Assembly: GCA_964463605.1 (NCBI GenBank) | Contig: CAYXBZ010000001.1 | Span: forward strand, 26,357 to 71,841 | DNA length: 45,485 nt | Source of the DNA: an uncultured Pseudomonadales bacterium | GTDB taxonomy: Bacteria; Patescibacteriota; Microgenomatia; UBA1400; PJMF01 | Direction of reading: 5' to 3' | Part shown: piece by piece, positions 1 through 16,250 of the stretch | Layout: each line of letters opens with the position of its first letter | How positions within the stretch are numbered: the stretch's first letter is position 1 | The notes under the pieces: generated by a model | Told to the model about the DNA's origin: nothing | Database searches by the model: none | What the model saw: the letters and a program-made list of their open reading frames with translations, nothing else | Program-made: the position numbers and the translations under genes

Positions 1-85
1 TGCAGCGATAATAGACAATGTCCGTAAGCCTCAAAACAATTTGATTGCTCAAATAGCGTCATAGAAATTCGGCGGTGCTTTTTTG

Positions 86-1269: not shown

Positions 1270-3057
1270 GTGAAAAAAAAGAAGTCCTCTCAATTTTTTA
1301 GAATTGTTGCAGCAATAGTTGTGTTGTCGTTATTTTTTTTCTCTTTAACAAGCGGCTCGTCTGTATTGGCAGATGAAAAAGATCCCAACTACAGCTCTGG
1401 CGAAAAATCAAGAGCGGTTAAAGAATCACTCAACCTTACTCCCAAATCATACAGCGACTCCAGAGAGGAATTTGAGGAAGCGGTTATGTCAGGCGTAACC
1501 GAGGGAAAAACCAACCTGAAAAGCCAAACCAGCGTTATTGCTCAAACTTTACAAGAGCAAGTGGTAACTCAAATACTTGGACCTGTTAGTGACGATTCAG
1601 ACACAGGAGCTTACTTTGGTCCCGGGGCAGCAGTTTTGGTTGCTAACTTGATTGATGGTATGTACGACGCTCCTGCTGCATCCACTGACAGATATGTCGC
1701 CCACCTGCTTGAGTCAGCCAAAATCATACCCACCGCCCAAGCTCAAGGAATTGGCTTCTCCTCCCTGGATCCGGTGATGACGCTGTGGTCGGCAATGCGC
1801 AATGTGGCCTACTTCTTTTTTGTGATAATCGTATTGGTCATAGGTTTTATGATCATGTTTAGGCACAAAATTGACGGTCAGACCGTGATTTCTGTACAAC
1901 AAGCCATCCCCAATATTATTGTGGCCATGATTTTTGTCACTTTTTCTTATGCAATTGGCGGCTTGCTGATCGACGCCATGTATCTGATGCTCTTTTTTAT
2001 AGTTGGAATTTTTGGAGCAAGTGAGGGATTAATCACAAATAATATTTTTGGTATCGGAGCTGATTTTATTAGCCGAGGCTTTAGAACCACTAACGAAGCC
2101 GTCTTGGCAATACTAAATGTTCAGCAAAGAAGCAGTCTAGGATCATTTTTAGTTGAGGGGCTGAGCGGATTAACGGTTGGTCTTGCGGTGGCAATTGCGC
2201 TCCTGTTTGGAATTGTGAAGCTATTTATTGAACTTCTCAAAAGCTACATCAGTATTATTTTGCTGATCGCCTTTTCCCCCATTATTTTAATGACGGGAGC
2301 AATTCCCGGCCAAAACTCATTTGGGTCATGGATAAAAAATCTTGTTGGTAATCTCGTTGCCTTTCCAGTTGTGTTGCTAATACTAGTAACCGCCGACACC
2401 ATTGCAAATTCTGCAGGCGAAGCCGGTGGATTTGTGCCACCATTTTTATTGGGTCACGGATTAGGTCGAGGATCGGCCATGACAGCCCTGGTGGGTTTGG
2501 GAATGCTTCTGGCAACACCAGAGATAATTAAGAAGGCAAAAGAGGCCATGGGAGCCAAAGAAGGAGTAATGGGTGAGCTGGCTGGGGCCGCGTGGGGAAG
2601 GTTTAAGGAGGGAGCCAGCGCGGGAAAGAAGGGTGCAATGATGCCAGTAGATGGTGCTTTAAGAGGAGCAAATGCTCTCATAGGTGGAGGCATCGCTGCC
2701 AAGGGAATGAGTGAGAGGTTGAGAGATCAGCCAAGTGGTATTAGAAAGCTGGGCACTGTAGCTGGAGGTCTAGTGGGTGGTGTATCGGGAGGAATTACCA
2801 AAGCACCAACTAAAACCGCAATGAGGCTTCTAAGCGGAGAGTCAGAGTTAGCTCAGAGGTTGATAGCAACAGAGGGTTTGGATTTTATTAGAAGAATCTT
2901 TTCAGGCATCGGTTCTAAGGCGGCTGCTGGAGGAGATTCCAAACTACAAGCAGCTGCTAACGAACCGGTAAGGGTAAAAGCATCGGACAAAGATAGACTA
3001 ACACGCAAAAACCTGAAAGAAGACAAATCAACGCCACGAGATCAAGGAGTGTTCTAG
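1270..3057 (+). CDS. Polytopic membrane protein, VirB6/TrbL-like T4SS channel subunit candidate
   Basis: 595-aa ORF with a GTG start. It has a Lys-rich N-terminus plus hydrophobic signal/anchor (FFRIVAAIVVLSLFFFSLTSGSSVLA), about 7 further hydrophobic helices, and a Gly/Ala/Lys-rich C-terminal tail. Size, topology and its position in a PrgI/VirB4 locus fit VirB6/TrbL. There is no motif-level proof. Confidence 0.5.
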   Translation: MKKKKSSQFFRIVAAIVVLSLFFFSLTSGSSVLADEKDPNYSSGEKSRAVKESLNLTPKSYSDSREEFEEAVMSGVTEGKTNLKSQTSVIAQTLQEQVVTQILGPVSDDSDTGAYFGPGAAVLVANLIDGMYDAPAASTDRYVAHLLESAKIIPTAQAQGIGFSSLDPVMTLWSAMRNVAYFFFVIIVLVIGFMIMFRHKIDGQTVISVQQAIPNIIVAMIFVTFSYAIGGLLIDAMYLMLFFIVGIFGASEGLITNNIFGIGADFISRGFRTTNEAVLAILNVQQRSSLGSFLVEGLSGLTVGLAVAIALLFGIVKLFIELLKSYISIILLIAFSPIILMTGAIPGQNSFGSWIKNLVGNLVAFPVVLLILVTADTIANSAGEAGGFVPPFLLGHGLGRGSAMTALVGLGMLLATPEIIKKAKEAMGAKEGVMGELAGAAWGRFKEGASAGKKGAMMPVDGALRGANALIGGGIAAKGMSERLRDQPSGIRKLGTVAGGLVGGVSGGITKAPTKTAMRLLSGESELAQRLIATEGLDFIRRIFSGIGSKAAAGGDSKLQAAANEPVRVKASDKDRLTRKNLKEDKSTPRDQGVF

Positions 3058-3120
3058 AAACAAGCCAACCAAGATGGGTGTGATAAGATTTAGTATATAG
3101 CGCTTAAAAAGCAGTTTGTA

Positions 3121-6042
3121 CTACCTCGCACCTTTCCCGGCAGCGATTATTGTCTCCTCCGCCACTTCCGCCATCTTCTTAAGCACCATCCAAAGCTGCT
3201 CTCTTACTATTGTTTGTCTTAAAAAGTTCTCATCCTCCGGAGATAGAAATTGCTCATTTGTACCAACCTCTGTTCCGGAAATTTCTGGACTGATTGATAT
3301 TTCTGCTAATTCGTGCAAAATATCAGTAGCTGTGCGAGAGTCGACCATATCCTTGGCCATTGCATAGCCTAAGGCGTGCCCAATAAACATGACTCGAAAC
3401 TTTCTCATTGCAACAACCCTCTGTTCTTTAGTAGCACTCCTATTGGAGAGGAAAAAAGGCCAACAATACCCAATGTCTTTTATAAAGTTCCTTACAAATT
3501 CATTACGAGTCTTATCCTGAGAAAGCTGGCCAACCAAAGAATCAACACTCATATAAAGAGTGTTTAAAACAAAATTGCCAATGTCAGACCCAAGTGCTTT
3601 GCAGTAACTCTCCCATGCATTTGTCTGTTTAAGCTCCAGCATGCGATTGAACAAACCCTCATAATAAACCTGTTGACCAAAATCTTCGTGCCTATAGTCA
3701 ATAAAAACGTAGTCCATCCCTGTCATAGTTCTACCATTACTAAACTTGCCTACCTCCAAGTAGTCAAGAAATGTTGGAAAAAGCGGAGAATAAGTTGAAT
3801 AGCACTCGCCCTGATGCTCTACTGGTTCTTTTATTGGTGTTTGGTAAGACAATCCATAGGGAAACCACACGTCGTAGTTATTTCTCCCCACAAGCTTTCT
3901 ACCCGCAGCATCCACGGCAACGTTTCCACGTGAGTCCAAACTCCCCCCAGAACCTTCTGTTGTGTATTTGGAAGGAATAATCTCCCTTATTTCTGATCTC
4001 CAATTAATCGTACGCGGATCCTCTAAGCTATTTCCCTCAACATCTCTAAATTCACTTAAAATCATTGGAAGAGCTGGGACTCCAGTAAACTGAGCTTTTC
4101 TAACATAGTTTCTTTGGTAATTGTGAAGTTTGAATACTTTTTGCCAGTCGCTCGAAATGCCCTGACCCTCAATTGGGTCTAACCAGCTTTGACCTTGAAT
4201 AATCGCAAACCACATATTCACCCCCACCCGAATGGCTTGGGGAGTTACGTCTTGAAACTCTGGTTCCTCTGATATAGCCTCAATTGCCTGTCCCATGCTA
4301 TTATGAATATTCCTAGCACTAAGAATAGCCATGTCTCCGCTAGCTTCCGTTCTTATTTCAAGTGGTTGCTGTTTTCCGATCGCTCGGTCCATCCTTCTCA
4401 TCACATCACCCACAGCTGAAACTACAAGATCTACATCCATATCAACCTCACCAGTTCGAGCGCTTATTAATCTAGCGCGTCGTCTTTTAAGTGGTCCATT
4501 TAGTTCGGGAGAGCTGAATAAAATTTTGTGAATATTCCCAACATCGCATAGTGCTGGTAAGTCATCCCATGGAAAATCTTTAAACTTTGCTGCCGATCTC
4601 CTCATAACCTCCTTTGCCTTTAAATAGAAGCGGGCGGCACTGAGCCTAGCGCTTACCTCAGTCTTGATTCTACTGTGGTATGCTGCGTCATCCGTCCACT
4701 CCCCCAACTCCTCCCAATAGCCATCGTTTCCGATTTCAGCTATAAATTCTTCCGCTGGATGTCCGCTCAACCCCTCATCCTCGTACTGAATAAGCGTCTG
4801 CATAATTCTTTTGATCTTTGTTTCATATTCTGAGGCAAGATCCTCCCTACTTCTCCCATCTCGTTCTTCTTTTAGCTTCTTAACTGATTTACCCGCTATC
4901 AAATCCCTTCTTTCTTGAATTAGTTTGTCTCTAAAGTTCTTAAGTTCTCGCAACGCCTCCTCAAATTCCTTTATCTGAAAGTTGTTCCACACCATTGAGT
5001 TAGTTGCTGTGTGCAAGTTAAGCTCTGCTTCTTTAAATAGGCTGTTAGCTTGAAAAATTAATTGTAGAAGGTAAGTAATTAACTCTTGCTCCCCCTCAAC
5101 GAAGATTTCATCTTTTAAGTCAAAATCGTCTCCAAGCTGCTTGAGTTTAAATTTAAGCAACCTCAGAGATTCGTGGAAGTCTCGATTATCTGGTGACGCT
5201 CTTTCTGCCTCCTTACCATCGCGCCCATCATCTCCATTATCATCTCCGCCATCAGTAACTGCTTCGCCAGTCGCCCCCCCTGAGTCAGCCTCTGCGCCCT
5301 CGCCCCCCCTCACTTTATCTGAGGGCTCCAATTGTTCCGAATCATTCTCACCCACCTTTTCTTTAGACCTGCTCAAGACACCCTCAGCCTTTTTAAGAAA
5401 GTTTTTTGTAGCTTCTAGCCGCCTGCTCAAATCGTGAGCTTTGTGCAAACTCTCCGCATCTCGCCTGAGCGCCTCTCTGTTTCTTATTACAAAACCCCTC
5501 AACATTTCCGTGATCTTGTCCACACGCTCCATGTCTAAAGCAAGGGCTTTTCTAGACATAGGCAAATCAGAGTCGGGTGAATAGAGTTCTTCCAAAGAGG
5601 AAAACAGGACTTCAATGCTGTCTAAGGTTAATTCTTGGTGCTGAGCATCTTCATTGGGATTGTCCTTCTCAACTCTTTTTGATTGAGAGGTGGACTCAAG
5701 ATGAGCGTTTAACTTGTTGACAAGCTCTCTCAATTTTGTCGCTGAAGATAAGATGCGTTTTTGAGCCCGTGTTGTTTCGGGAGAATCTTCGCCTGAGGTA
5801 TTCAGCTCCCTCGCAAATTGCAATAAATCATCCCTGAGAGAATTGAGATCCTCTAGGTCTGACTCCAGTTGAGTTCGGGGCATGTCCATCCCAGACAAAG
5901 AGCTAAGATCTTTATACTTGTCCTGCAGCGACCTGAGCCTGTCAATAGTGTCTTGAAGATTGTTCTGACCAACACCCTCAGTTTCATCCCTATTAGCTAT
6001 TGGCTCGGCAGGACCCTCTCCTGGATTTATAAACTCTGCCAT
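3121..6042 (-). CDS. Large soluble hypothetical protein (~973 aa) with coiled-coil/acidic N-terminal half and no recognisable domain
   Basis: Uninterrupted ORF. The track start at 6174 is a TTG. I prefer the first ATG at 6042 (MAEFINPGEG...) because the 44 upstream codons are hydrophobic/aromatic junk-like. No hydrophobic helices and no signal peptide. An acidic Gly/Asp stretch (GGDDNGDDGRDG) is present. It lies antisense to the flanking T4SS-like genes. Confidence 0.6.
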   Translation of the reverse strand: MAEFINPGEGPAEPIANRDETEGVGQNNLQDTIDRLRSLQDKYKDLSSLSGMDMPRTQLESDLEDLNSLRDDLLQFARELNTSGEDSPETTRAQKRILSSATKLRELVNKLNAHLESTSQSKRVEKDNPNEDAQHQELTLDSIEVLFSSLEELYSPDSDLPMSRKALALDMERVDKITEMLRGFVIRNREALRRDAESLHKAHDLSRRLEATKNFLKKAEGVLSRSKEKVGENDSEQLEPSDKVRGGEGAEADSGGATGEAVTDGGDDNGDDGRDGKEAERASPDNRDFHESLRLLKFKLKQLGDDFDLKDEIFVEGEQELITYLLQLIFQANSLFKEAELNLHTATNSMVWNNFQIKEFEEALRELKNFRDKLIQERRDLIAGKSVKKLKEERDGRSREDLASEYETKIKRIMQTLIQYEDEGLSGHPAEEFIAEIGNDGYWEELGEWTDDAAYHSRIKTEVSARLSAARFYLKAKEVMRRSAAKFKDFPWDDLPALCDVGNIHKILFSSPELNGPLKRRRARLISARTGEVDMDVDLVVSAVGDVMRRMDRAIGKQQPLEIRTEASGDMAILSARNIHNSMGQAIEAISEEPEFQDVTPQAIRVGVNMWFAIIQGQSWLDPIEGQGISSDWQKVFKLHNYQRNYVRKAQFTGVPALPMILSEFRDVEGNSLEDPRTINWRSEIREIIPSKYTTEGSGGSLDSRGNVAVDAAGRKLVGRNNYDVWFPYGLSYQTPIKEPVEHQGECYSTYSPLFPTFLDYLEVGKFSNGRTMTGMDYVFIDYRHEDFGQQVYYEGLFNRMLELKQTNAWESYCKALGSDIGNFVLNTLYMSVDSLVGQLSQDKTRNEFVRNFIKDIGYCWPFFLSNRSATKEQRVVAMRKFRVMFIGHALGYAMAKDMVDSRTATDILHELAEISISPEISGTEVGTNEQFLSPEDENFLRQTIVREQLWMVLKKMAEVAEETIIAAGKGAR

Positions 6043-6264
6043 AATATGCTTTATTATAATCCAAAAAGCGACAAATGTCTTGAGCTTGAATTGACTCCTG
6101 TGACCCAATGAAAGCCAATCATCTGCCGATATCTCTTTCGCGCCCCAAAACCAAGTGCTAGAGTTCGCTTGCAAACTTGGGTCAAGAACACGCGGAGTTT
6201 AAAACCCTCCAACCACTACTCACTGTAGTAAAAAAAGACCAAGTAGTCCCCTCCTTTTTTCCGC

Positions 6265-6270
6265 TATAAT
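6265..6270 (+). promoter_or_regulatory. -10 element (TATAAT) 6 nt upstream of the ATG at 6277, suggesting a leaderless transcript
   Basis: Perfect TATAAT at 6265-6270, then AGCCTT, then ATG. No Shine-Dalgarno and no convincing -35. Confidence 0.35.
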
Positions 6271-6276
6271 AGCCTT

Positions 6277-9200
6277 ATGGCAAATCTTGGCTCTTCGCCC
6301 CGTACCCTCAAGGTCCTGGATCGCTCTACCCTAATTAGAGATAATCCTCTTAGCAGCATCCAGGCTCTCCTTGAGCAAATTGCCAGCCACAACTTTGATA
6401 ACAAACAGCAACGCTTTCCAGGACAACACATCTGGAGTCCGTCTAACCAAAATCAGTTTGTGGTTGCGCTTTCTGAAGACATTATTTTAGACCACTATGA
6501 AGCTGGCGCCCCTGTGTTTAACGAGGTTTTATTCGTCAGCGATTTCTTCTCAATCCTCAATGACATTGACGACTATCTGCAAGATGAATTGAAGCGTGCA
6601 GTCAGAGCCATTGACGCCAATGTTGAGGATGCAAATCTCAAGAATGCTGCTAAGGATGAGCTTGGGGTAGTTTTAACAAATCTGGAAAAGCTTACCTCCG
6701 GCAACAGAGCTAGGGTTAATCGCTGGCAAAACGGCATCATTGATTCAGCAAGAGAAATTAGGCTTTTTAAGTCTATTGAGAAGCAGCAGTTCCAACCCAT
6801 TGTTTCTCTGGCGCAGTCGCTGGCCGGAGTTGTTCAAGAGTTTGGTGGCTGGCTAAGCAAATATTCCAATGTTATTGATTATGAATCCCAGCTAGAGGGG
6901 AGTCAGGAAGATGATCAAACAAAACCACCTCTAACTCAAACCTCAACCTCACCAGCGACAGCTCCCGAGCTAGAGAGAGTCGATCCAGACCAAGGCGAGT
7001 TAGAGCAAGAACAAACCCAGCCCAAACCCGATCCAACCCCACCGCCCAATCCCTCTGAATTCAATTCTGCTCTAGCTAATTTTTCACAATCTTTCTCACA
7101 AGTAGTCCTAAACAATCTTCTGGCAGCCTACACTCTTGATGAAGATAGTAACGCCCTGGCAGGGTTTGCTGATTTATCGCCCGAACTGCAGAACGAATTA
7201 AGAAGACAGCTAGCCCCGCAAATCGAGAATATCATTCTTTCACTTAGTCAAAGCGAGCTTGAGGCACTGCTTCACGGGGGCCCAGACTCGTCTGCAGTTA
7301 GACTTAAAGTCTTTAGAAAAGCTCACAGTTTTGCTATTGGCTATCCACCGCTAAGATTGTTGCTTCAGCAGGCGATTAATGAGTCTCATGCCTCGCTTAG
7401 TCAAAACCAGCCAGACAAAAAAGACAAGTTGGCAGAAAAAGTTAAAGAAACAAGTCATGAAGAGGCTCAAAAGAATCTGGGGGTGATCGCCTCAGACGAC
7501 GCTCCAGGCTTCGACCAAGGTCAGACAAATAATCTCAAGGCTCTTCTTTCTTTTTCATCGCTGTCACCAGAACAAGTTCGCCAGGAGTTTAGATTACAAC
7601 TTGAGCAGTTAGTTGGCAGTCAGGCTGACTCCACTGCTTTGGGTTTGGCTCAAACTAACTTTGAGTCAACCATCACCAGCCTGATCATTTCGGATCCCAT
7701 TCTTACCCCCAAATTCATTGATTACCTTGACTATCCAAAGATTAGAGCCTTTCTTGGAGATATCATTTCAAGCCAAACTTACCAAGAACACAAAAACGAA
7801 ATTCACGCCCTTTTAAAACAGTATTGGATGGTACTAAGAGCCGAGCTCAATCAGACTCACCCTGCTTTAGGAAATCTGACGGAACTGTCTCCACACCAGG
7901 TTAGGTTAAATGATGAGGAAGTTAACGATCGAATGCATCGAGCTTCCCTAATAAGAACCGAAGTTGTTGGTAGATTTGATCAAAACAAGGCAGATGTTAT
8001 TAAGGCAGCTGTTGGCGAAGGGGTAGGCAGTCCCGAAAATGCAGAGGGGGCCGATCATACCAAACGCCTAAAAGAACACTTTCTCAAAACCACCGACGTA
8101 GCGCAACGCCGCAGATATTTAGAAACGGTGGGACTTGGTGAAATGGTTGGTGGCCTTGACAAAAAAACCGACGGTTCAGACACAGTTAGACAGGAATACG
8201 AGCTTTCGATTAACGAGTTTAATCGTATCTTGCAGGAAACTCAGCAAGAGTTTGATTATTTTTTGTTTGTTGAACAAGAGCTTAGGTTTCAACAGCAACA
8301 AGCGGTTCAAACTTACATCATTGCCCAAGCAGCCCAGCAAGCAGCCAGACAGCAGTTTGCCGCTATCGCCCTCCAGGCTCAATACCTAGAAATATTGGGA
8401 GGTTCGCATTTTCTTGTTCCTAGAGAAGAGTATGCCTACCAACTTCCTGGACGAGACAGCCTAACTCAAATTCCCTACTACCCACAGTCAACCAGTGACA
8501 TGATTGCGATGTCTCAAGGCCTGGGAGACGGGGGTGGTGGAGATAATCCAAGAGGTGCAATCGATCAGCAAAAAATGGCCATGTTGGAAGGTTTGGCAGA
8601 AATGGGAGTCGATGCCGCTCTTAATTATGCCACTGGAGGTGGATACCAGGCCATTCCCAAACCGCTGCGGGACATGCTCAATAAAATTGTTGTTAAAGAG
8701 TCCCTTAAAAAAATTAGAACAATACTTAAGGCTCTAAAGATAGCGGCGGCGGCGGCCATGGCAGTGTTGGCAGCGCTAGTTAAGCTCGCCCATACCGCAA
8801 TAACTGCAGGAGGAGCTCTGGGCGGAGCCTTAGTAGGAGGTGGAGTTGGGTTTGTAATAGGTGGTCCAATCGGCGGCCTAATCGGAACAGCTCTGGGTGG
8901 CCTTGCCGGCTTGTTTGGTGGAAAAGGAGCCGCAAACAGAGTTCTCTCCACTACCGCAGCTGACTCGGCCCGAGCGGGAGCCAGAAATGTGAGTGCTGCC
9001 GCTGAAGGATTGGGTGATGCAGCCAAACAACAAGCCTCCTTAACCGGCACCGGCGCTGAGGCAGCCGCACTTGAATCAACCGTTGGAGCTAATGTTGCTG
9101 CCCAGGTAGCCGGATATGCTGTGGCTGGCATGGGTGCTATGGCTGCCACCACATTATTGGTAATGACCGCATTTCAGTCAGCTTTTTTGATAGATCCTCC

Positions 9201-10167
9201 CCTGTCGCCACAAGAGCTTGATCGGATGGGAATCTCTCAGTACGTAAATATAAAGAAGGAAGCTAGAATCATCAATGAAGACTCCGGGTGCGCTGGAACG
9301 AGGAGATGCGAAAATCCAAACTTTCCCGTATTGGTTCAATACACCATCACCATTGAGCCAAAAAACAACTATATCCTTGAAATTATTTTTATAGAGGATG
9401 ATGCCAAAACTCTTTACAACAAAGATGCCTACTCTTCTCTAGCCGATGTTCCTTCAACCCCCCCACATAATGAGATTTATTTAAGTAGCGATGATGACCC
9501 AATCATTCTTAACCCCGTTGATGACGATCCCAGCAACGATCGACACACAATCGTATACGAGAAAGAGTATGGATCAGACTACAACCACGCCCTTATTAGA
9601 AATGCTGCAACTACAAAATTTATCTATTCAAAAGATGGCTCGCAAGGAACAGATGAGGCCAGAAGCTCTACCTCTGTAGCTTTGGGAGAAGCTCCCCAAG
9701 AGCTACTTTGTTGGCCCAACGATGGATACATCACCTCAGTTCCATTCAGAGGAATTAAATCTCACATCACAACAGATGCTTACGACATTGCTACAGGCAG
9801 AAAAGTAGTTCCAGCCTATGCTCCAGCCGATGGGAGACTGTGTGGCGGCGGATTTGGCAACAATCCGAGCGTTGGTTATGGATATCACGTAACTCTTAGC
9901 ACCTCAATTTTAGGCGAGGATTATCTTTTTGTTTTAGGACACTTAGACGAGCCATCTTTTTTAGTCCCAATAAACGGAGATTGTGTTGAAGTTAATCGGG
10001 GAGATCGTATCGGCAACGTTGGAAACACAGGTAACTCCGACGGCCATCATATGCATCTGGAAAAAAGAAGGGAGTCTGGAAGCCTTTCATTAACCGAACT
10101 ACTAACAGGTGACACCGCGATACTAAATTACGGTCAAACAATCTATTCGTGCGCTTCTGAACAATAA
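6277..10167 (+). CDS. Giant membrane protein with C-terminal M23 (LytM-type) peptidoglycan endopeptidase domain; T4SS-associated cell-wall hydrolase candidate
   Basis: 1296-aa ORF. The first ~800 aa have no hydrophobic segment and include a Pro/Gln-rich stretch. A Gly/Ala-rich hydrophobic block follows (AAAAMAVLAALVKLAHTAITAGGALGGALVGGGVGFVIGGPIGGLIGTALGGLAGLFGG; later AGYAVAGMGAMAATTLLVMTAF). The C-terminus carries M23 motifs: HxxxD (H1163 ITTD, nt 9763) and HxH (GNTGNSDGHHMHLE, nt 10045-10056). Confidence 0.75.
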   Translation: MANLGSSPRTLKVLDRSTLIRDNPLSSIQALLEQIASHNFDNKQQRFPGQHIWSPSNQNQFVVALSEDIILDHYEAGAPVFNEVLFVSDFFSILNDIDDYLQDELKRAVRAIDANVEDANLKNAAKDELGVVLTNLEKLTSGNRARVNRWQNGIIDSAREIRLFKSIEKQQFQPIVSLAQSLAGVVQEFGGWLSKYSNVIDYESQLEGSQEDDQTKPPLTQTSTSPATAPELERVDPDQGELEQEQTQPKPDPTPPPNPSEFNSALANFSQSFSQVVLNNLLAAYTLDEDSNALAGFADLSPELQNELRRQLAPQIENIILSLSQSELEALLHGGPDSSAVRLKVFRKAHSFAIGYPPLRLLLQQAINESHASLSQNQPDKKDKLAEKVKETSHEEAQKNLGVIASDDAPGFDQGQTNNLKALLSFSSLSPEQVRQEFRLQLEQLVGSQADSTALGLAQTNFESTITSLIISDPILTPKFIDYLDYPKIRAFLGDIISSQTYQEHKNEIHALLKQYWMVLRAELNQTHPALGNLTELSPHQVRLNDEEVNDRMHRASLIRTEVVGRFDQNKADVIKAAVGEGVGSPENAEGADHTKRLKEHFLKTTDVAQRRRYLETVGLGEMVGGLDKKTDGSDTVRQEYELSINEFNRILQETQQEFDYFLFVEQELRFQQQQAVQTYIIAQAAQQAARQQFAAIALQAQYLEILGGSHFLVPREEYAYQLPGRDSLTQIPYYPQSTSDMIAMSQGLGDGGGGDNPRGAIDQQKMAMLEGLAEMGVDAALNYATGGGYQAIPKPLRDMLNKIVVKESLKKIRTILKALKIAAAAAMAVLAALVKLAHTAITAGGALGGALVGGGVGFVIGGPIGGLIGTALGGLAGLFGGKGAANRVLSTTAADSARAGARNVSAAAEGLGDAAKQQASLTGTGAEAAALESTVGANVAAQVAGYAVAGMGAMAATTLLVMTAFQSAFLIDPPLSPQELDRMGISQYVNIKKEARIINEDSGCAGTRRCENPNFPVLVQYTITIEPKNNYILEIIFIEDDAKTLYNKDAYSSLADVPSTPPHNEIYLSSDDDPIILNPVDDDPSNDRHTIVYEKEYGSDYNHALIRNAATTKFIYSKDGSQGTDEARSSTSVALGEAPQELLCWPNDGYITSVPFRGIKSHITTDAYDIATGRKVVPAYAPADGRLCGGGFGNNPSVGYGYHVTLSTSILGEDYLFVLGHLDEPSFLVPINGDCVEVNRGDRIGNVGNTGNSDGHHMHLEKRRESGSLSLTELLTGDTAILNYGQTIYSCASEQ

Positions 10168-10204
10168 ATAGCTGAAGTGTAACAATTATTGAAACATTCA
10201 ACCA

Positions 10205-11221
10205 ATGATAAAAAAATACCCCTGGATTAAATATTTTCTCATCTTCGTGTTTGCAGCGATTTTGATAGCGGCAGTGATTCGAGTAATAACTCCTCAAACC
10301 GAGGAGCCGCTTATTCCTCCAAGCGAGGTTCAAAAAAAGAATTTCGATCAAAGTGTCAGCACTTACAACAACGTTGAGTTTGTTGGCTCAACCTCAAACA
10401 TTGATTTGACCAACAGTGTTGGAATTTATTCAGCGCAATTAGTGGATGGAGAAGAAGAGCTTGACAACCTCATCTCCACTCTTGTTTCGTTATTCAATCT
10501 CGTCCAAGATCCAGAACTCACAGATAAGGAATTTTACATTAGTGATGAATATAGCTTGTCAAGAAGTTATTTAAGAGATGAATTGATGCTATCTAGATAC
10601 ACTCCGCCAGAAGTTATGTTGGAGCAGATCGCCAACCCACCACCAACAGGCATAAATACTCAGCAAGCAATTAGTCGAGCCACTCTTTTTGTAAACAGTA
10701 TTTTTGAAGAACAACAGTACGTCCCCCAACTCAGCAGCATTGCCTATCTGGAAGGAATGATGGAGCCCCATCCTTCATCAGAACAAAATGCTCACTACGC
10801 TGAGATTTCTTTTGCTCAACAAATCGATTCACTGCCAATTATTTTGGAGCAGGAATTGGTAGCCCCAATTAGAGTGATGGTTTCAAACAACTACCTCATT
10901 CAAAAGGCGGTGTTTCGCACCAAAGAATTAAATTTACAGCAGATCTCTGACGCCCAATTACTCACTGTTGAAGAAGCAATCGATCGCCTTAACCAAGAGT
11001 CGGTGGGATCAATCGTTGGTTTTGCTAAAGATGATCCAACCCCATATTCACTGGCTCAGATCAGCTCGGGAACCCTGGAGGAGGTGGTGCTTGAGTATCG
11101 ATATGACCCAGAGTTAGATTTAGTTTATCCTTTTTATAGATTCTCAGGCACGCTTACCAACTCTCAAAATCAATCTCTTCAAGCTGATGTTATTGCTCCC
11201 GCAATAAAGGTTCAGTTGTAA
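10205..11221 (+). CDS. Bitopic membrane protein (N-terminal anchor plus ~300-aa external domain), unknown family; positional VirB8/TcpC-like candidate
   Basis: 338-aa ORF with one N-terminal hydrophobic helix (WIKYFLIFVFAAILIAAVIRVI). The rest is hydrophilic. It lies between the M23 protein and the PrgI-like gene. Confidence 0.55.
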   Translation: MIKKYPWIKYFLIFVFAAILIAAVIRVITPQTEEPLIPPSEVQKKNFDQSVSTYNNVEFVGSTSNIDLTNSVGIYSAQLVDGEEELDNLISTLVSLFNLVQDPELTDKEFYISDEYSLSRSYLRDELMLSRYTPPEVMLEQIANPPPTGINTQQAISRATLFVNSIFEEQQYVPQLSSIAYLEGMMEPHPSSEQNAHYAEISFAQQIDSLPIILEQELVAPIRVMVSNNYLIQKAVFRTKELNLQQISDAQLLTVEEAIDRLNQESVGSIVGFAKDDPTPYSLAQISSGTLEEVVLEYRYDPELDLVYPFYRFSGTLTNSQNQSLQADVIAPAIKVQL

Positions 11222-11259
11222 CCCCATAAATGGTAAGATGGACTTAGAGGCACCAACTC

Positions 11260-12318
11260 ATGCAAGAACACCCAATCCCGCAAGATATTACCGGCTACAA
11301 GTTCCATTTGGTGGGCAGCATGACCCTCAAGCAGTTCGCTGAGGTGTTGGTGGGAGTGTTGGTGGCACTGGCTCTTTATAAATCGGGTTTGCCTGGAATT
11401 ATTCGTTGGCCAGCAATGATTTTTTCAGCCGGCTTGGGAGCCATGGCAGCTTTCGTCCCAATTGAGGAAAGACCCCTAGATCACTGGATTGTAACTTTTG
11501 TCAAAGTTTTGTTTAAACCCACTAAGTTTTTTTGGAAAAGAGAACCCGTAATCCCCGACACCTTTACCTATGAGCCCGAAGAACAAAGCAGCCAACCAAG
11601 TTATGAGGTTGACTTGTCTCCAGCTAGAAAAAACAAGATTTATCAATATCTGCAGTCGATCAACCATCCAACCAACAAAATCGATAACTACGACATGGCA
11701 GAGCAACAGCGAGTAAATCAGCTATTGTCTGGATTTGATCAAATAAATGTTGAGAGTTCTCCCACTAAAGATAGGTCAAAACCCAACCTTACCGTTAGAG
11801 TTAGAGAGATGAGAGACTATCAAATCTACCCAGCATCCCAACCAAACAACCAATCTCAAACTGAGCAATTTAAAGATAAGGCCCCTGTAACTTCGGGGGT
11901 GCCTTCTGACTCAACGAGCACATCCTTAAACCAGACTGCTAAAAAACAAGATGTTGAAGATCCTCAGGGTCAAATTAGCCAAAATGACTTGCACAAATAT
12001 AAGGAATCCAATCAACCCACCACCATTGTTAACACCCTGCCACCACCCACCAACTCACTCCCCAACCAGATCTCAGGTATTTTGATGTCAAGTCAGGGAA
12101 ATCTAATCGGAGATGCTGTGGTTGAGGTTCAAGATAAAAACAACAAAACAGTTACCGCAGTCAAAAGCAACTCTTTGGGACAGTTTGTGGTTTCCAGACA
12201 GTTGCCAAACGGAGAATACTCACTGGCTATTTCCGCCAGTGGATTTAAGTTTGAACCAATTAATACAACCCTCACGGGAGAGTTAGTTAATTCTCTGGAA
12301 ATTAAGGCTTCAGCCTAA
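11260..12318 (+). CDS. PrgI/VirB3-like T4SS membrane protein fused to a C-terminal carboxypeptidase-regulatory-like beta-sandwich domain
   Basis: The N-terminus IPQDITGYKFHLVGSMTLKQFAEVLVGVLVALALY plus a second helix (WPAMIFSAGLGAMAAFVPIEERPLDHWI) matches the PrgI-family pattern. A Ser/Thr/Gln/Pro linker follows. The C-terminus ISGILMSSQGNLIGDAVVEVQDKNNKTVTAVKSNSLGQFVVSRQLPNGEYSLAISASGFKF matches the CarboxypepD_reg pattern. A possible extended -10 (TGGTAAGAT) sits at 11231-11239. Confidence 0.65.
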   Translation: MQEHPIPQDITGYKFHLVGSMTLKQFAEVLVGVLVALALYKSGLPGIIRWPAMIFSAGLGAMAAFVPIEERPLDHWIVTFVKVLFKPTKFFWKREPVIPDTFTYEPEEQSSQPSYEVDLSPARKNKIYQYLQSINHPTNKIDNYDMAEQQRVNQLLSGFDQINVESSPTKDRSKPNLTVRVREMRDYQIYPASQPNNQSQTEQFKDKAPVTSGVPSDSTSTSLNQTAKKQDVEDPQGQISQNDLHKYKESNQPTTIVNTLPPPTNSLPNQISGILMSSQGNLIGDAVVEVQDKNNKTVTAVKSNSLGQFVVSRQLPNGEYSLAISASGFKFEPINTTLTGELVNSLEIKASA

Positions 12319-12406
12319 TGAAAAAGGCTTTGTTTAAATAATTTATGAAAAAAACCCACTAACTTGTGGTTTATTATTTACCCTCAACTGATTTATACTA
12401 TTAAAC

Positions 12407-14110
12407 ATGCCGCCCACATCACAATATCAGTCAACCACTCAAAAATATCTAGATATTTACGATATAACCAACAATTTTGTTATATTAAAAACTGGATTTG
12501 TGAGTTTTGTGCTGAGTGTAAGTGCCATGAACTTTGGACTGCTGGCCGAAGCTGAACAAGACGCTGTAATCTATACCTATGCTTCGCTGTTGAACTCACT
12601 AAATTATCCTGTTCAGATCGTAATTCAATCACAAACCAAAGATGTTACTGACTACTTAAACTTACTCAAGCAGCAAGAAACTGAAGCTAGCTCCGATCAA
12701 AAAAGAGAAAGAATTGCTCGTTACAGACAGTTTGTTTCACAGCTTATTAAAGAGAGAAATGTTTTGGATAAAAAGTTCTACGTTGTTGGTTCCGCCACTC
12801 CCAGTGAGTTGGGTCTAATAACAGCAGATAGTGTATTACCCGGAAAAACAGAATTTGATATTACCAAGTTTGAAAAATCGGTAATACTTGAGAAAACCGA
12901 GTCTGTCCTCGATCCAAGAAGAGATCATCTTATTAGTCAATTTGCGCGCATTGGTCTTTTTGCCAGGCAGCTTAATACACAAGAAATTATTCGTATTTTT
13001 TACACCAGCTATAACCCAGAAGCCAGCGAGGGACAAGAGGTCACCGACACCCAGCAGTACACAACCCCTCTTGTGAGAGCCAGTTTGGTCAAACAAACTC
13101 AACCACTTACCACTCAACCACTTACTACCCAACCACAAAACCCCACTCCACCACCAGCTCAGGATTTGACAGAACAACAGGTTCATGAACCTGAGTTAGT
13201 TGAGCAACAACAAACTAGCCCCCAACCCTCCGAAGTAGCTTTTGAAACAAATGAAGAAAGCTTGACGAGCAACAACAATTCTCAAGCACCAAGTCAGCAA
13301 GAGTCACACGAACAACTTCAAGCAACAATTCAACAATCAAGCACCGATTCTATGACAAACCAAGCCAACCACAACTATCCAACTCCAAGCCACGCTCTGA
13401 CCAACAACCAAAGCAATCAAGCGGTAGAGCTGCAAAATAACGTCAGCTCGCCAACCAAAGCTTCTCCTGCATCACAAACATCTCAGTTAAGCAGCACACT
13501 TCCTCAAGACTCAACATCTTTGCAGCCTCAATCGCCATCGGTTCCAGAGCCCCAAGAACAGCCAAGCCCACAAGACTTAGTGAGCACTCCAGTTGAAAAT
13601 AATTTAAACAGTCAGGGTTCTGCGGGGTCTCAAATGCCACAGTCTCCAGCGCCCTCAACCACTCCCAGCGTCAATCCCTCTGCCACCCAGGAAGCCGATA
13701 CCAAACCAATGACAAGCACAGCTACATTTCAAGAAAACTTAGATGATTTTAGTCCTCCACCTGTAAGTAAGGGTCAAGGAGCCTCTTTGGGTAATAAGGT
13801 GAGTTTTAAAAAAAGCGCCTCCAGAAACTCTGATGCCAGTGGGTCAGTTGAGGAGAAACCTTCTGAGGAACTCTCCTCTACAGATAGCTCCGCCAATGAT
13901 CAAATTAACCAAGACTTGATTAAAGAAGTTCCTTCAGAACCCAAGTCCTCAGAACAAAAAACCCCAGAGTCTAAAGCATCAGAACAAAAAAAGCCAGAAA
14001 ATCAATCGTACACAGAGCCAGCCGGTCAAGACAACAAACCATTAGAAAATCAGAGTACAGATTCGAGAAGCGCACCAACCAACCTTCCACCTATCGCTGA
14101 AATCAAATAA
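12407..14110 (+). CDS. T4SS-associated protein: VirB4/TrsE N-terminal-domain-like region (no ATPase) plus ~330-aa Pro/Gln/Ser/Thr-rich disordered tail
   Basis: The first ~230 aa (YLDIYDITNNFVILKTGFVSFVLSVSAMNFGLLAEAEQDAVIYTYASLLNSLNYPVQIVIQSQTKDVTDYL) resemble the N-terminal non-ATPase domain of Gram-positive VirB4-type proteins. No Walker A or B motif is present. The remainder is low complexity with short tandem repeats. Confidence 0.5.
   Translation: MPPTSQYQSTTQKYLDIYDITNNFVILKTGFVSFVLSVSAMNFGLLAEAEQDAVIYTYASLLNSLNYPVQIVIQSQTKDVTDYLNLLKQQETEASSDQKRERIARYRQFVSQLIKERNVLDKKFYVVGSATPSELGLITADSVLPGKTEFDITKFEKSVILEKTESVLDPRRDHLISQFARIGLFARQLNTQEIIRIFYTSYNPEASEGQEVTDTQQYTTPLVRASLVKQTQPLTTQPLTTQPQNPTPPPAQDLTEQQVHEPELVEQQQTSPQPSEVAFETNEESLTSNNNSQAPSQQESHEQLQATIQQSSTDSMTNQANHNYPTPSHALTNNQSNQAVELQNNVSSPTKASPASQTSQLSSTLPQDSTSLQPQSPSVPEPQEQPSPQDLVSTPVENNLNSQGSAGSQMPQSPAPSTTPSVNPSATQEADTKPMTSTATFQENLDDFSPPPVSKGQGASLGNKVSFKKSASRNSDASGSVEEKPSEELSSTDSSANDQINQDLIKEVPSEPKSSEQKTPESKASEQKKPENQSYTEPAGQDNKPLENQSTDSRSAPTNLPPIAEIK
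13097..13141 (+). repeat. Three imperfect 15-bp in-frame tandem repeats (encode TQPLT-TQPLT-TQPQN)
   Basis: actcaaccacttacc / actcaaccacttact / acccaaccacaaaac read directly. A second short repeat (tcagaacaaaaaa, SEQK) occurs near 13951 and 13978. Confidence 0.8.
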
Positions 14111-14180
14111 AATTGATCACAAAAATAACTCAACAAAAAAAATATAAGTTTATATCAGAAATAATATTACAATCAGACCA

Positions 14181-16250
14181 ATGCTTTCATCGCTTAACTT
14201 ACCACTACCCTTCCTTAATAAGAAAAAAGAAGAGGTCGATCCAGACGAACAAAAACAACTTGAACTTCAGCAAATTGAGGAGTTCTCAAGAGGTTTGGTT
14301 ACCATTCAAGACATCATAGCCCCAGAAGCGATTGAGGTTGATTTCACCTACCAAAAAATTAACTCTTCGTACTCAAGAACCCTTTTTGTGGCCGGATATC
14401 CGAGATCTGTTCCAGCCAACTGGCTTTCTCCGCTAGTCAACTTTCCAACCCAAACTAACATTTCCATGTTTATTTTCCCCATGGATAGCTCGGAGATTTT
14501 AGATAACCTCAAAAGAAAAATCACTGAAATGGAGGCCGAGATTCAGTCAGACATTCGTTCTGGGAAAATCAGCAACATCAATACCGAAATAAAACTCAAT
14601 GATGCGAGAGTTATCCGAGAACAGTTGGCTGCGGGAGCTGAGCGGTTTTATCAGTTTGGACTTTACATAACCATCAAAGCAGACTCAGTTAAAGAGCTTG
14701 ATCGCATCACCAAAAGCATTCAATCAACTCTTGGAGCGCTGCTCATCGTCTCAAAAAAAGCCACCCTCCAAATGGATGAGGGCTTTAAAACCACCCTCCC
14801 TATGGGCACTGACCTTCTTCAAGTAACTAGAAACATGGACACCACCTCTTTGGCCACCACCTTTCCGTTTACCTCTTCTGAATTGACCATGGACACCGGC
14901 ATTCTTTACGGCATTAACGAACACAATGAGTCTTTGGTCATCTTTGATAGATTTAGAATGGAAAGTTACAACATGTTAATTTTGGCTAAGTCTGGTGCGG
15001 GTAAGTCATATACCGTTAAGCTTGAAATTTTAAGACAACTCATGTTTGACACGGAGATAATTGTTCTTGATCCAGAACAAGAATATGAAGACTTGTGTCA
15101 AATGGTGGGTGGCGAATACATTAATTTTACTTTTGGATCTAAAGCTAAAATCAATCCTTTTGACTTATCTCAAGTTTATGAAGAAGGGCAAAACGAGTTG
15201 GGTCAAAAGATTCTTTCGCTACATGGCTTACTAAAGGTGATGTTAGGAGAAATGTCTGCAGAGCAAGACGCTTTGCTTGACAGGGCTCTCATCGCAACTT
15301 ACAAAGCAAAGGGGATCACGCCCGATCCAGCCACTCAAAAAAACACCCCTCCAATGATGGAGGATTTGTACAAAACCATCATTGGTATGGAAAGTGCTGA
15401 GGCTGATGATATAGCCGCTCGCCTAGAAAAATACATCACTGGCTCTTTTAGAGGGATTTTTGATCAAGCATCAAACATAAATATCAACAACGAGTTTACG
15501 GTTTTTAGTGTTAAAGAAATGGAAGATGAATTAAGACCCGTCGCCATGTACGTTATTCTTGATTTTATTTGGACTAGAGTAAAAAAAGATTTTAAAAAGA
15601 GGTTGCTAATAATCGATGAGGCTTGGTACTTTATGCAGCACCCAGACAGCGCCAAGTTTATCTATTCTATGACCAAGCGTGCTCGAAAATATTATTTAGG
15701 TATCACCACCATCACTCAAGATGTGGAGGATTTCCTTCATAATGATTTTGGTAAGGCAATTGTTTCAAACGCCTCAATAAAGTTTTTAATGAAACAATCA
15801 ACCGCCTCAATTCCCGCTTTGTCAGAAGCTTTTTATCTTTCCGAAGGAGAACGGCAGCTTTTGGTGTCAGCAGACATTGGAGAGGGGGTGTTTTTTGCCG
15901 GACAAAATCACGTAGCACTAAGAGTTGTGGCAAGCGACGAAGAACATCAGGTTATCACCACCGACCCAAGAGAAATAGATGCTCGAAGAAAACAGCAACA
16001 GGCTTCTGCACGACAAACATCTCAGTCACAAACTCAAAACTCCCATCAAGAAAGTCAGCAGCGCGCGCCTACCTCAAATCAAAACAATCAAGAGACAAAA
16101 GCGTCCTTACCCAATAAGGAGTTTTTGGGACAGTTGATGAGCTCTCTAGCTTCTAAGAAGAGTAATCAAAAAGATTCTTCAGAGCCTCAACAAAATCAGT
16201 CAAAAAGGGCTGGGCACTACACTATCGACGACTACTCAGAGCCCACCTAA
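14181..16250 (+). CDS. virB4: VirB4-family T4SS ATPase
   Basis: 689-aa ORF. Walker A is LILAKSGAGKSYTVK and Walker B is RLLIIDEAWYFM. Typical VirB4 context includes ITTITQDVEDF. The C-terminal tail is Gln/Ser-rich. Confidence 0.85.
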   Translation: MLSSLNLPLPFLNKKKEEVDPDEQKQLELQQIEEFSRGLVTIQDIIAPEAIEVDFTYQKINSSYSRTLFVAGYPRSVPANWLSPLVNFPTQTNISMFIFPMDSSEILDNLKRKITEMEAEIQSDIRSGKISNINTEIKLNDARVIREQLAAGAERFYQFGLYITIKADSVKELDRITKSIQSTLGALLIVSKKATLQMDEGFKTTLPMGTDLLQVTRNMDTTSLATTFPFTSSELTMDTGILYGINEHNESLVIFDRFRMESYNMLILAKSGAGKSYTVKLEILRQLMFDTEIIVLDPEQEYEDLCQMVGGEYINFTFGSKAKINPFDLSQVYEEGQNELGQKILSLHGLLKVMLGEMSAEQDALLDRALIATYKAKGITPDPATQKNTPPMMEDLYKTIIGMESAEADDIAARLEKYITGSFRGIFDQASNININNEFTVFSVKEMEDELRPVAMYVILDFIWTRVKKDFKKRLLIIDEAWYFMQHPDSAKFIYSMTKRARKYYLGITTITQDVEDFLHNDFGKAIVSNASIKFLMKQSTASIPALSEAFYLSEGERQLLVSADIGEGVFFAGQNHVALRVVASDEEHQVITTDPREIDARRKQQQASARQTSQSQTQNSHQESQQRAPTSNQNNQETKASLPNKEFLGQLMSSLASKKSNQKDSSEPQQNQSKRAGHYTIDDYSEPT

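What the first reader, a model, noticed from the sequence alone, without database searches (positions are those of the whole stretch)
1270..16250. T4SS-like core locus directly abutting dnaA/oriC, with no relaxase or coupling protein in view
Six same-strand genes form the locus, interrupted by one antisense giant ORF:
- a VirB6-like polytopic protein
- a giant M23 hydrolase
- a bitopic protein
- a PrgI/VirB3-like protein
- a protein resembling only the VirB4 N-domain
- a VirB4 ATPase

This is the minimal Gram-positive-type T4SS parts list, but several things do not fit a conjugative element. I see no VirD4-type coupling ATPase, relaxase, integrase or repeat boundary. The locus ends ~145 nt before dnaA, in the most conserved chromosomal neighbourhood. 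That points to a domesticated apparatus, for example for DNA uptake, host-cell contact or protein delivery. Most of its components carry unusual fusions, described in separate findings.
Basis: partly seen in the sequence, partly recalled or inferred. Interest (0 to 1): 0.75.

Follow-up and report, generated by a model that had tools for sequence, protein, structure and literature searches.

The report
Patescibacterial type IV secretion locus
This is the chromosomal type IV secretion machine, without relaxase or coupling protein, that ultrasmall Patescibacteria carry right beside their replication gene dnaA; it is real and well conserved, but papers from 2023-2025 already describe it.

Summary
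Same-strand genes at 1270-16250 encode:
- a VirB6-like polytopic protein
- a 1296-aa membrane-anchored M23 peptidase
- a bitopic protein
- PrgI/VirB3 fused to a CarboxypepD_reg domain
- a TrsD-like protein resembling the VirB4 N-domain
- a VirB4 ATPase of the CD1110/MPF-FATA type

One convergent 1017-aa ORF interrupts them. The locus ends 144 nt before the dnaA ATG. The 45-kb window holds no coupling ATPase, relaxase, integrase or flanking repeats.

The order M23-bitopic-PrgI-TrsD-VirB4-dnaA-dnaN-yidC recurs in 71-75 of 80 species-level genomes (Pacebacteria, Woesebacteria, Microgenomates). VirB4 is more conserved across them than DnaA. This is a vertically inherited chromosomal apparatus, not an ICE.

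The kind, the missing relaxase and the dnaA proximity were published by Wang 2023 (PMC10633639) and Quinonero-Coronel 2025 (PMC12102498), so the novelty is low.

- a 7-gene VirB2-like pilin array at 36332-39866
- an SLT_3 lysozyme-like giant gene ending at base 30
- a conserved, probably inactive DHH-like gene at 86-1072

Small additions from this work:
- The VirB6-like protein matches R388 TrwI/VirB6 by fold only.
- The bitopic protein looks YycH-like, not VirB8-like.
- The convergent giant gene fills a conserved slot whose sequence is hypervariable; here it is an ORFan.

The parts
1..30 (+). 3' end of a giant lysozyme-like gene (SLT_3 domain, VirB1-like role); the rest lies left of the window
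   Evidence: Contig L002 extends the window leftwards. It carries a partial product of at least 609 aa with PF18896 SLT_3 at 1.7e-7, 32 bits against 27. Homologues of 1078-1256 aa sit at the same place in relatives.
86..1072 (-). Syntenic protein with a DHH domain only (328 aa), catalytic motifs degenerate
   Evidence: The family profile hits the TM1595 DHH/DHHA1 phosphodiesterase at 2.9e-10, but the DHH, DGD and DTG motifs are replaced. It is conserved on the opposite strand between the SLT_3 gene and the VirB6-like gene in 26 of 41 loci.
1270..3057 (+). VirB6-like polytopic membrane protein with a Gly-rich disordered C-terminal tail
   Evidence: It has 7 hydrophobic segments. The AF2 model has pLDDT 72, and its top PDB hits are TrwI/VirB6 of R388. 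Sequence hits to Mbov_0396, TrbL and TrbL_5 are weak. More than 250 homologues were found, all unannotated.
3121..6174 (-). Convergent giant ORF (1017 aa; probably 973 aa from the ATG at 6042), acidic, no TM segment; fills a conserved slot with hypervariable sequence
   Evidence: Among 1.84 billion representative proteins it finds only itself. In about 58 related loci the gene after the VirB6-like gene is a convergent ORF of 560-1530 aa. These fall into many clusters that are unlinked or barely linked.
6277..10167 (+). Giant M23 peptidoglycan hydrolase: about 800-aa N-terminal region, Gly/Ala-rich TM segments, C-terminal M23 domain
   Evidence: Pfam M23 matches residues 1170-1266. TM segments lie at 813-962. 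Its C-terminal part is detected upstream of VirB4, same order and strand, in 45 of 80 genomes.
10205..11221 (+). Bitopic protein (N-terminal TM plus 3 alpha/beta domains), YycH-like fold
   Evidence: One TM segment at 11-29. The AF2 model has pLDDT 77. Best PDB hits are YycH (9a5d_B at 3.3e-5, 2fgt at 1.1e-3), with no VirB8, TcpC or TraM hit. It is syntenic in 47 of 80 genomes.
11260..12318 (+). PrgI/VirB3-like protein fused to a C-terminal CarboxypepD_reg beta-sandwich
   Evidence: PF12666 matches residues 5-90 and PF13620 matches 270-330. Full-length matches in relatives show the fusion is conserved.
12407..14110 (+). TrsD-like protein (VirB4 N-domain-like, residues 1-230) with a 340-aa Q/P/S-rich tail
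   Evidence: NCBIfam TrsD scores 2.7e-8, and the protein aligns to positions 104-289 of the VirB4_plasma model. It lies next to VirB4 in 71 of 80 genomes.
14181..16250 (+). VirB4 ATPase (MPF-FATA, CD1110 type)
   Evidence: It shows 66-85% identity across 80 species genomes.
16295..16303 (-). DnaA-box-like TTTTCCACA in the VirB4-dnaA spacer
   Evidence: One of only three exact copies in the window; all three flank dnaA.
16395..17951 (+). dnaA (context, not part of the machine)
   Evidence: Pfam Bac_DnaA scores 8e-65. The ATG is at 16395.
17952..18333 (.). AT-rich dnaA-dnaN spacer with a palindromic pair of DnaA boxes: candidate oriC
   Evidence: Boxes at 17987(+) and 17998(-), with variants at 18066 and 18079. 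The cumulative GC skew minimum falls at 18-19 kb.
36332..39866 (-). Array of seven divergent VirB2-like T4SS pilin genes
   Evidence: PF18895 T4SS_pilin hits all seven (8.7e-10 to 2e-3; two exceed the gathering score). Each has two TM segments and a shared W-x-x-S-G-G-D-S-x-K-x-E-K-A loop; the other six are 19-31% identical to the first. In relatives the array lies directly upstream of the SLT_3 and VirB6-like genes.

Best explanation
[quoted passage not shown] It belongs to the MPF-FATA-derived 'Patescibacteria clade', here in a Microgenomatia-type genome.

Proposed working, with each step marked.

1. The VirB4 ATPase, with the separately encoded TrsD-like N-domain protein, docks on PrgI/VirB3 and the VirB6-like polytopic protein to form the membrane translocon. 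The parts are shown; the assembly is inferred from canonical T4SSs.
2. The membrane-anchored M23 peptidase and the SLT_3 lysozyme-like giant open peptidoglycan. The domains are shown; the target wall, own or host, is inferred.
3. VirB4 drives extraction and polymerisation of the VirB2-like pilins encoded by the 7-gene array. The result is a tube or pilus that reaches the host cell on which these epibionts live (inferred).
4. With no relaxase or coupling ATPase at hand, the machine does not conjugate DNA. It moves proteins or host-derived macromolecules across the contact site; the direction is unresolved.

Its place beside dnaA is an ancient, conserved arrangement. Whether it raises expression through gene dosage is untested.
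For: - Profile and fold assignments of all parts.
- Intact Walker A and B motifs in VirB4.
- Identical gene order and strand next to dnaA in 71 of 71 scorable species genomes, with a median gap of 178 nt.
- VirB4 has median 74% identity across these genomes, against DnaA 51%, YidC 54% and DnaN 38%. This points to strong purifying selection.
- Pilin array, SLT_3 gene, DHH-like gene, VirB6-like gene, convergent giant gene and M23 are contiguous in related metagenome loci.
- No Walker A ORF other than VirB4, DnaA and RecF in the window. No relaxase, integrase or att repeats were found, and the only tRNA gene lies about 25 kb from VirB4.
- Literature. The Saccharibacterial homologue SEML1_0006-0019 is essential for epibiotic growth and lacks a relaxase and T4CP (PMC10633639). 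A phylum-wide survey reports the TrsD, PrgI and VirB6 parts, VirB2 arrays, rare relaxases and dnaA proximity (PMC12102498). Tubular structures that may be T4SS pili were seen at a parasite-host interface (bioRxiv 10.64898/2026.06.21.733656).
Against: - No experiment exists for this lineage; essentiality is shown only in Saccharimonadia.
- The VirB6 assignment rests on a modest fold match (TM about 0.4) and weak profile hits.
- No VirB8-like protein was recognised.
- The window's pilin array is 20 kb away on the opposite strand, so co-regulation with the core is not evident.
- A T4CP or relaxase elsewhere in the genome cannot be excluded, because only 45 kb plus about 1.8 kb of flank were seen.
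Confidence: 0.85

Rival explanations
1. It is an ordinary integrative conjugative element, or a remnant of one, whose relaxase, T4CP and integrase lie just outside the window.
For: VirB4 is closest to conjugative CD1110/CTn2-type and mycoplasma ICE VirB4 models. The VirB6-like protein weakly hits an ICE TM family. The first 17 kb has somewhat higher GC (0.41-0.50) than the next 10 kb (0.33-0.37).
Against: The same order next to dnaA is present in 71-75 of 80 different species. The left flank in the window's own organism is an SLT_3 gene. In relatives the flank is pilins, then SpoIID and VanW. No integrase or direct repeats were found, and the only tRNA gene is about 25 kb away. GC of 0.40-0.50 recurs in housekeeping genes at 28-35 kb. 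PMC12102498 found relaxases near virB4 in only 15 genomes.
Confidence: 0.03
2. It is a dedicated nucleic-acid import machine, analogous to ComB or Ced. It feeds a nucleotide-auxotrophic cell with host DNA or RNA rather than exporting anything.
For: It lacks a T4CP and relaxase, like ComB of H. pylori (discussed in PMC11665869). CedB is among the weak VirB4 model hits at 4e-11. A DHH-family (nanoRNase-like) gene is conserved inside the locus. A 2026 preprint links Patescibacterial parasitism to host RNA uptake and notes possible T4SS pili.
Against: The DHH-like protein has lost the DHH, DGD and DTG catalytic motifs. No nuclease or ComEC-like channel is in the locus. There is no direct evidence for transport direction in any Patescibacterium.
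Confidence: 0.25
3. It is a decaying, non-functional relic kept only by its position next to dnaA.
For: There are long low-complexity tails on the TrsD-like protein, VirB4 and the VirB6-like protein, and an ORFan gene inside the locus.
Against: All ORFs are intact. The VirB4 catalytic motifs are intact, and VirB4 is more conserved than DnaA across 71 species. The Saccharibacterial counterpart is essential (PMC10633639).
Confidence: 0.02

Closest known systems
Patescibacteria-clade T4SS as surveyed by Quinonero-Coronel et al. 2025 (PMC12102498)
   Same: FATA-type VirB4, an adjacent TrsD homologue, PrgI/VirB3, M23 and lysozyme hydrolases, VirB2-like pilin arrays, no nearby relaxase or T4CP, and virB4 next to dnaA, dnaN, rnpA and rpmH in Microgenomatia and Paceibacteria.
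   Different: That survey found VirB6 scarce in Microgenomatia and most Microgenomatia VirB3 homologues not near virB4. Here both are in the locus; VirB6 is seen only by fold and weak profiles. In this window the pilin array sits about 20 kb beyond dnaA on the other strand instead of upstream of the VirB6-like gene.
Southlakia epibionticum T4SS, SEML1_0006-0019 (Wang et al. 2023, PMC10633639)
   Same: Gram-positive-like subunit set plus an essential pilin array, no recognisable coupling protein or relaxase, and low locus-tag numbers, which may place it near the start of the genome record.
   Different: It belongs to a different class (Saccharimonadia) and its essentiality was shown experimentally. 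The giant convergent gene, the DHH-like gene and the PrgI-CarboxypepD_reg fusion were not compared.
MPF-FATA conjugative systems (CTn2 CD1110, pCF10 Prg, pGO1 Trs, pCW3 Tcp)
   Same: VirB4 above the curated CD1110 cutoff, PrgI, TrsD, a VirB6-like protein and large multidomain wall hydrolases.
   Different: Those systems carry a relaxase, a T4CP and an oriT on mobile elements, have no VirB2 pilins, and include VirB8-like PrgL, TcpC or TraM. Here no relaxase or T4CP is present, pilins are present, and the bitopic protein looks YycH-like.
Mycoplasma ICE transfer genes (Mbov_0396/Mbov_0397)
   Same: The VirB6-like protein hits the Mbov_0396 TM family. The TrsD-like protein plus VirB4 together tile the Mbov_0397 VirB4 model, at positions 104-289 and 279-893.
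   Different: In mycoplasma this is one fused VirB4 on a mobile ICE. Here the gene is split and fixed in the chromosome.
T4CP-less T4SSs (H. pylori ComB, Bordetella Ptl, Brucella VirB)
   Same: They work without VirD4 and without a relaxase.
   Different: They are diderm MPF-T systems with an outer-membrane core complex (VirB7, VirB9, VirB10). No such genes are present here.

Membership tests
Patescibacteria-clade chromosomal T4SS | VirB4 ATPase of MPF-FATA affinity | tested here: met
   NCBIfam conju_CD1110 scores 386 bits against a cutoff of 325. Pfam TraG P-loop, AAA_10 and CagE_TrbE_VirB also hit. No phylogeny was built.
Patescibacteria-clade chromosomal T4SS | TrsD-like protein encoded next to virB4 | tested here: met
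   NCBIfam TrsD scores 2.7e-8, below the curated cutoff. The gene is immediately upstream of VirB4 here, and a homologue lies upstream of VirB4 in 71 of 80 genomes.
Patescibacteria-clade chromosomal T4SS | PrgI/VirB3 homologue | tested here: met
   PF12666 scores 28.6 bits against a gathering score of 27.
Patescibacteria-clade chromosomal T4SS | VirB6-like polytopic protein | tested here: inconclusive
   No Pfam hit for the protein itself. 3 of 83 homologues weakly hit TrbL or TrbL_5. Mbov_0396 scores 2.5e-5, below cutoff. The top fold hits are TrwI/VirB6 but with TM only 0.40-0.45.
Patescibacteria-clade chromosomal T4SS | VirB2-like pilin gene array | tested here: met
   Seven PF18895-matching genes at 36332-39866. 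They are adjacent to the locus in relatives.
Patescibacteria-clade chromosomal T4SS | No relaxase or T4CP near virB4 | tested here: met
   Pfam scans of nearly all larger ORFs, including every ORF of 300 aa or more, and a Walker A scan. This covers the window only.
Patescibacteria-clade chromosomal T4SS | Chromosomal location by dnaA, dnaN, rpmH and rnpA | tested here: met
   Conserved in 71-75 of 80 genomes.
Patescibacteria-clade chromosomal T4SS | Required for epibiotic growth | not testable with these tools
   Shown only for S. epibionticum (PMC10633639).
Conjugative T4SS / ICE (MPF-FATA) | Relaxase and oriT | tested here: not met
   No relaxase family hit in the window or in the left flank of relatives. 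oriT was not searched.
Conjugative T4SS / ICE (MPF-FATA) | VirD4/TcpA coupling ATPase | tested here: not met
   Only VirB4, DnaA and RecF have Walker A motifs.
Conjugative T4SS / ICE (MPF-FATA) | Integrase with att repeats, variable insertion site | tested here: not met
   No integrase hits and no flanking repeats. The site is fixed across species.
Conjugative T4SS / ICE (MPF-FATA) | VirB8-like (NTF2-fold) bitopic protein | tested here: not met
   The model of the 338-aa bitopic protein matches YycH, not VirB8, TcpC or TraM. The profile found no PDB hit. Domain-level NTF2 similarity was not tested.

The most novel reading that the evidence does not exclude
The convergent giant gene directly after the VirB6-like gene (3121-6174 here) occupies a strictly conserved slot in this lineage. 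Its sequence turns over so fast that the window's copy has no detectable homologue among 1.84 billion proteins. It could be a rapidly diversifying cytoplasmic substrate, effector or host-specificity factor of the T4SS, comparable to polymorphic toxin or effector cargo. That would give the first candidate for what this essential machine transports.
Probability: 0.15. Interest if true: 0.65.

Novelty: already known. Interest (0 to 1): 0.28.

Why it matters
The T4SS of Patescibacteria is thought to be central to how these ultrasmall, auxotrophic epibionts exploit host bacteria, and its substrate is unknown. This window adds no new kind of system. It gives a clean Microgenomatia example with a fuller parts list: a VirB6-like protein, an in-locus PrgI fusion, two giant wall hydrolases, a YycH-like bitopic protein, a pilin array, a dead DHH-like protein and a hypervariable giant gene. 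These parts could guide structural and genetic work.

Tried and rejected
- Pfam on the VirB6-like protein, the bitopic protein and both antisense ORFs found nothing.
- A profile of 83 VirB6-like homologues against PDB sequences gave nothing meaningful.
- BLASTP of the TrsD-like N-domain against VirB4 showed no similarity at E = 1. Only profiles show the relation.
- The VirB8 hypothesis for the bitopic protein failed. Sequence profiles found no hit, and the fold search returned YycH instead.
- Word-indexed homologue searches for the bitopic protein returned only 5-6 proteins, even with a 48-sequence profile. Its model therefore rests on a shallow alignment.
- orf1017 has no homologues. An HMM of the largest cluster of positional analogues does not hit it, and hhalign between clusters links it to none.
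- Extending the contig failed. Exact-protein look-ups gave only contigs of 9 kb or less on the left and nothing on the right.
- Promoter and terminator scans were at chance level.
- The repeat search gave no att-like boundaries.
- Rfam found only tRNA-His.
- The VirB4-DnaA identity correlation was weak (rho 0.23, p 0.058), so it was not used as evidence of co-divergence.
- GC composition does not mark the locus clearly as foreign.

Full report
**1. What is in the sequence**

On the + strand lie 1270-3057 (595 aa), 6277-10167 (1296 aa), 10205-11221 (338 aa), 11260-12318 (352 aa), 12407-14110 (567 aa) and 14181-16250 (689 aa). One long convergent ORF lies at 3121-6174 (1017 aa).

Downstream follow:
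- dnaA, dnaN and rpmH (19648-19809)
- rnpA, yidC and jag
- RNase H, a DUF4012 protein and L25
- a class I tRNA synthetase
- mevalonate-pathway genes, isoprenoid genes and others

The VirB4 stop at 16250 lies 144 nt before the dnaA ATG at 16395.

**2. Assignments**

- VirB4 is unambiguous. NCBIfam conju_CD1110 scores 3.1e-115, above its curated cutoff. Pfam TraG P-loop, AAA_10 and CagE_TrbE_VirB also hit, and the Walker A and B motifs are intact.
- The 352-aa protein passes Pfam's PrgI threshold at residues 5-90. It carries a CarboxypepD_reg beta-sandwich at 270-330. Full-length tblastn matches in relatives show the fusion is conserved.
- The 567-aa protein is TrsD-like. Its first 230 residues hit NCBIfam TrsD (2.7e-8) and positions 104-289 of the mycoplasma VirB4 model, where the real VirB4 aligns to 279-893. 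Together the two genes tile a full-length VirB4. BLASTP between them shows nothing. The remaining 340 residues are a Q/P/S-rich tail.
- The 1296-aa protein has an M23 domain at 1170-1266. Gly/Ala-rich TM segments sit at about 813-962. An N-terminal region of about 800 aa has no signal peptide and no hits.
- The 595-aa protein has a signal-like helix plus six TM segments. It has more than 250 homologues, all unannotated. Sequence evidence for VirB6 is weak: Mbov_0396 ICE TM family at 2.5e-5, and 3 of 83 homologues touching TrbL or TrbL_5. An AF2 model from an 83-sequence alignment has pLDDT 72. Its best matches among 350,542 PDB chains are TrwI/VirB6 chains of the R388 T4SS (E 2.9e-3, prob 1.0, TM 0.40-0.45). 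I accept 'VirB6-like' as the best reading at moderate strength.
- The 338-aa protein has one N-terminal TM segment. Its model has pLDDT 77 but rests on only 6 sequences. It matches YycH (9a5d_B at 3.3e-5, 2fgt at 1.1e-3) and not VirB8, TcpC or TraM. It sits where a VirB8-like protein would be expected, but that membership was not met.

**3.

- Seven consecutive minus-strand genes at 36332-39866 all match PF18895 T4SS_pilin. They share the VirB2 layout: a leader, TM1, a W-x-x-S-G-G-D-S-x-K-x-E-K-A loop and TM2. The other six are only 19-31% identical to the first.
- The first 30 bases of the window are the end of a large gene. On overlapping contigs its product carries an SLT_3 lysozyme-like domain.
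- The minus-strand gene at 86-1072 belongs to a family whose profile hits DHH/DHHA1 phosphodiesterases (TM1595, 2.9e-10). In this family the DHH, DGD and DTG catalytic motifs are replaced and the DHHA1 domain is missing.

In related metagenome loci the canonical order is: pilin genes(+), SLT_3 giant(+), DHH-like(-), VirB6-like(+), convergent giant(-), M23(+), bitopic, PrgI, TrsD, VirB4. All of these belong to one conserved neighbourhood. In this window the pilin array is displaced to the far side of dnaA. Whether more pilin genes lie left of the window is unknown.

**4. Not a mobile element**

In the window only VirB4, DnaA and RecF have Walker A motifs. No ORF hits relaxase or integrase families. 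The only tRNA, tRNA-His at about 41 kb, is far from the locus. There are no flanking direct repeats. In relatives the genes left of the pilins are SpoIID- and VanW-type wall proteins.

A scan of one genome per GTDB species found 80 loci with VirB4 at 66-85% identity. The informatively named ones are Pacebacteria, Woesebacteria, Microgenomates or Patescibacteria MAGs; a few other names and the many 'uncultured Pseudomonadales' titles look like mislabels. dnaA follows VirB4 on the same strand in 71 of 71 scorable loci, with a median gap of 178 nt. The order M23-bitopic-PrgI-TrsD-VirB4-dnaA-dnaN-yidC is general.

VirB4 has median 74% identity across these genomes. It is more conserved than DnaA (51%), YidC (54%) or DnaN (38%). 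This is a vertically kept gene set under strong selection.

**5. oriC**

Exact TTTTCCACA occurs only three times in 45 kb. One copy is in the VirB4-dnaA spacer (16295, -). A palindromic pair (17987 +, 17998 -) lies in the AT-rich 382-bp dnaA-dnaN spacer, with variants nearby. Cumulative GC skew reaches its minimum at 18-19 kb.

The likely origin is therefore the dnaA-dnaN spacer, 1.7 kb from the VirB4 stop. The box upstream of dnaA may serve autoregulation. If so, the T4SS operon is transcribed towards the origin, head-on to replication. That is an inference from a short window.

**6. The convergent giant gene**

It is called as a gene in independent assemblies. It has no TM segment and is acidic, with pI 5.1. 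A full HMMER scan of 1.84 billion representatives found only itself, as a 973-aa product starting at M45.

In about 58 related loci the gene right after the VirB6-like gene is a convergent ORF of 560-1530 aa. By BLASTP these fall into clusters of 27, 7, 4, 3, 2, 2 and 2, plus 11 singletons. Profile-profile tests link only some clusters: c1-c6 at 62% and c2-c3 at 85%. None link to the window's copy. The slot is conserved but the sequence is hypervariable. I found no mention of this in PMC12102498.

**7. Comparison with what is known**

- Wang et al. 2023 (PMC10633639) described an essential T4SS in S. epibionticum. It has a Gram-positive-like composition and an essential pilin array, with no recognisable coupling protein or relaxase.
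- Quinonero-Coronel et al. 2025 (PMC12102498) surveyed the phylum. They report a distinct VirB4 clade related to MPF-FATA, TrsD as the most abundant partner, PrgI and VirB6, M23 and lysozyme hydrolases, VirB2 arrays that are abundant in Microgenomatia, relaxases near virB4 in only 15 genomes, and proximity to dnaA, dnaN, rnpA and rpmH in Microgenomatia and Paceibacteria. They propose a gene-dosage explanation for that proximity.
- A 2025 review (PMC12857230) and a 2024 perspective (PMC11665869) repeat this and call the function unknown.

The increments here are modest:
- a fold-level VirB6 candidate in a class where the survey found VirB6 scarce
- PrgI inside the locus
- the split-VirB4 reading of TrsD
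- the YycH-like bitopic protein
- the dead DHH-like gene
- the hypervariable slot
- the displaced pilin array

**8. Verdict**

The feature is real and correctly interpreted, but already known. The mechanism I commit to is a VirB4-powered machine that builds a pilus on a VirB3/VirB6 platform. It crosses wall opened by two giant hydrolases and exchanges proteins or host macromolecules, not relaxase-led DNA, with the host cell. Identity confidence is about 0.85. The transport direction and the substrate remain open.

Noticed in passing
window 3121-6174 (-); analogues e.g. L089:11852-15016(-), L099:11653-15111(-): The gene after the VirB6-like gene is a convergent giant ORF of about 1000 aa in about 58 related loci. 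The sequences fall into many unlinked clusters. The window's copy has no homologue among 1.84 billion proteins.
   Followed up: partly
window 86-1072 (-): A DHH-domain-only protein related to the TM1595 and NrnA phosphodiesterases. Its catalytic DHH, DGD and DTG motifs are replaced and it has no DHHA1 domain. It is conserved between the SLT_3 giant and the VirB6-like gene.
   Followed up: partly
window 36332-39866 (-): Seven divergent VirB2-like pilin genes lie 20 kb from VirB4, on the other strand and the other side of dnaA. In relatives the array is directly upstream of the SLT_3 and VirB6-like genes, which suggests a rearrangement around the origin.
   Followed up: partly
window 16295-16303, 17987-18006: The only three exact TTTTCCACA motifs in the window flank dnaA. 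Two of them form a palindrome in the AT-rich dnaA-dnaN spacer, the likely oriC. The T4SS operon would then be transcribed head-on to replication.
   Followed up: partly
window 29812-33325 (+): HMG-CoA reductase, an HMG-CoA synthase-like gene and a thiolase-like gene form a mevalonate-pathway cluster. NUDIX genes, an amino-acid-kinase-family gene (a possible isopentenyl phosphate kinase) and a UPP synthase follow.
   Followed up: no
window 40069-40725 (-), 40999-41074 (-): An AbiEii-type toxin gene lies next to tRNA-His, just beyond the pilin array.
   Followed up: no
window 22516-25686 (+): A 1056-aa DUF4012 protein with a single TM segment sits in the origin-proximal housekeeping block.
   Followed up: no
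loci L007-L086 (record titles): Many of the closest genomes are titled 'uncultured Pseudomonadales bacterium', and single ones 'TM6' or 'Limisphaerales'. They carry the same Patescibacteria-type locus, so the titles look like mislabelled MAG taxonomy.
   Followed up: no
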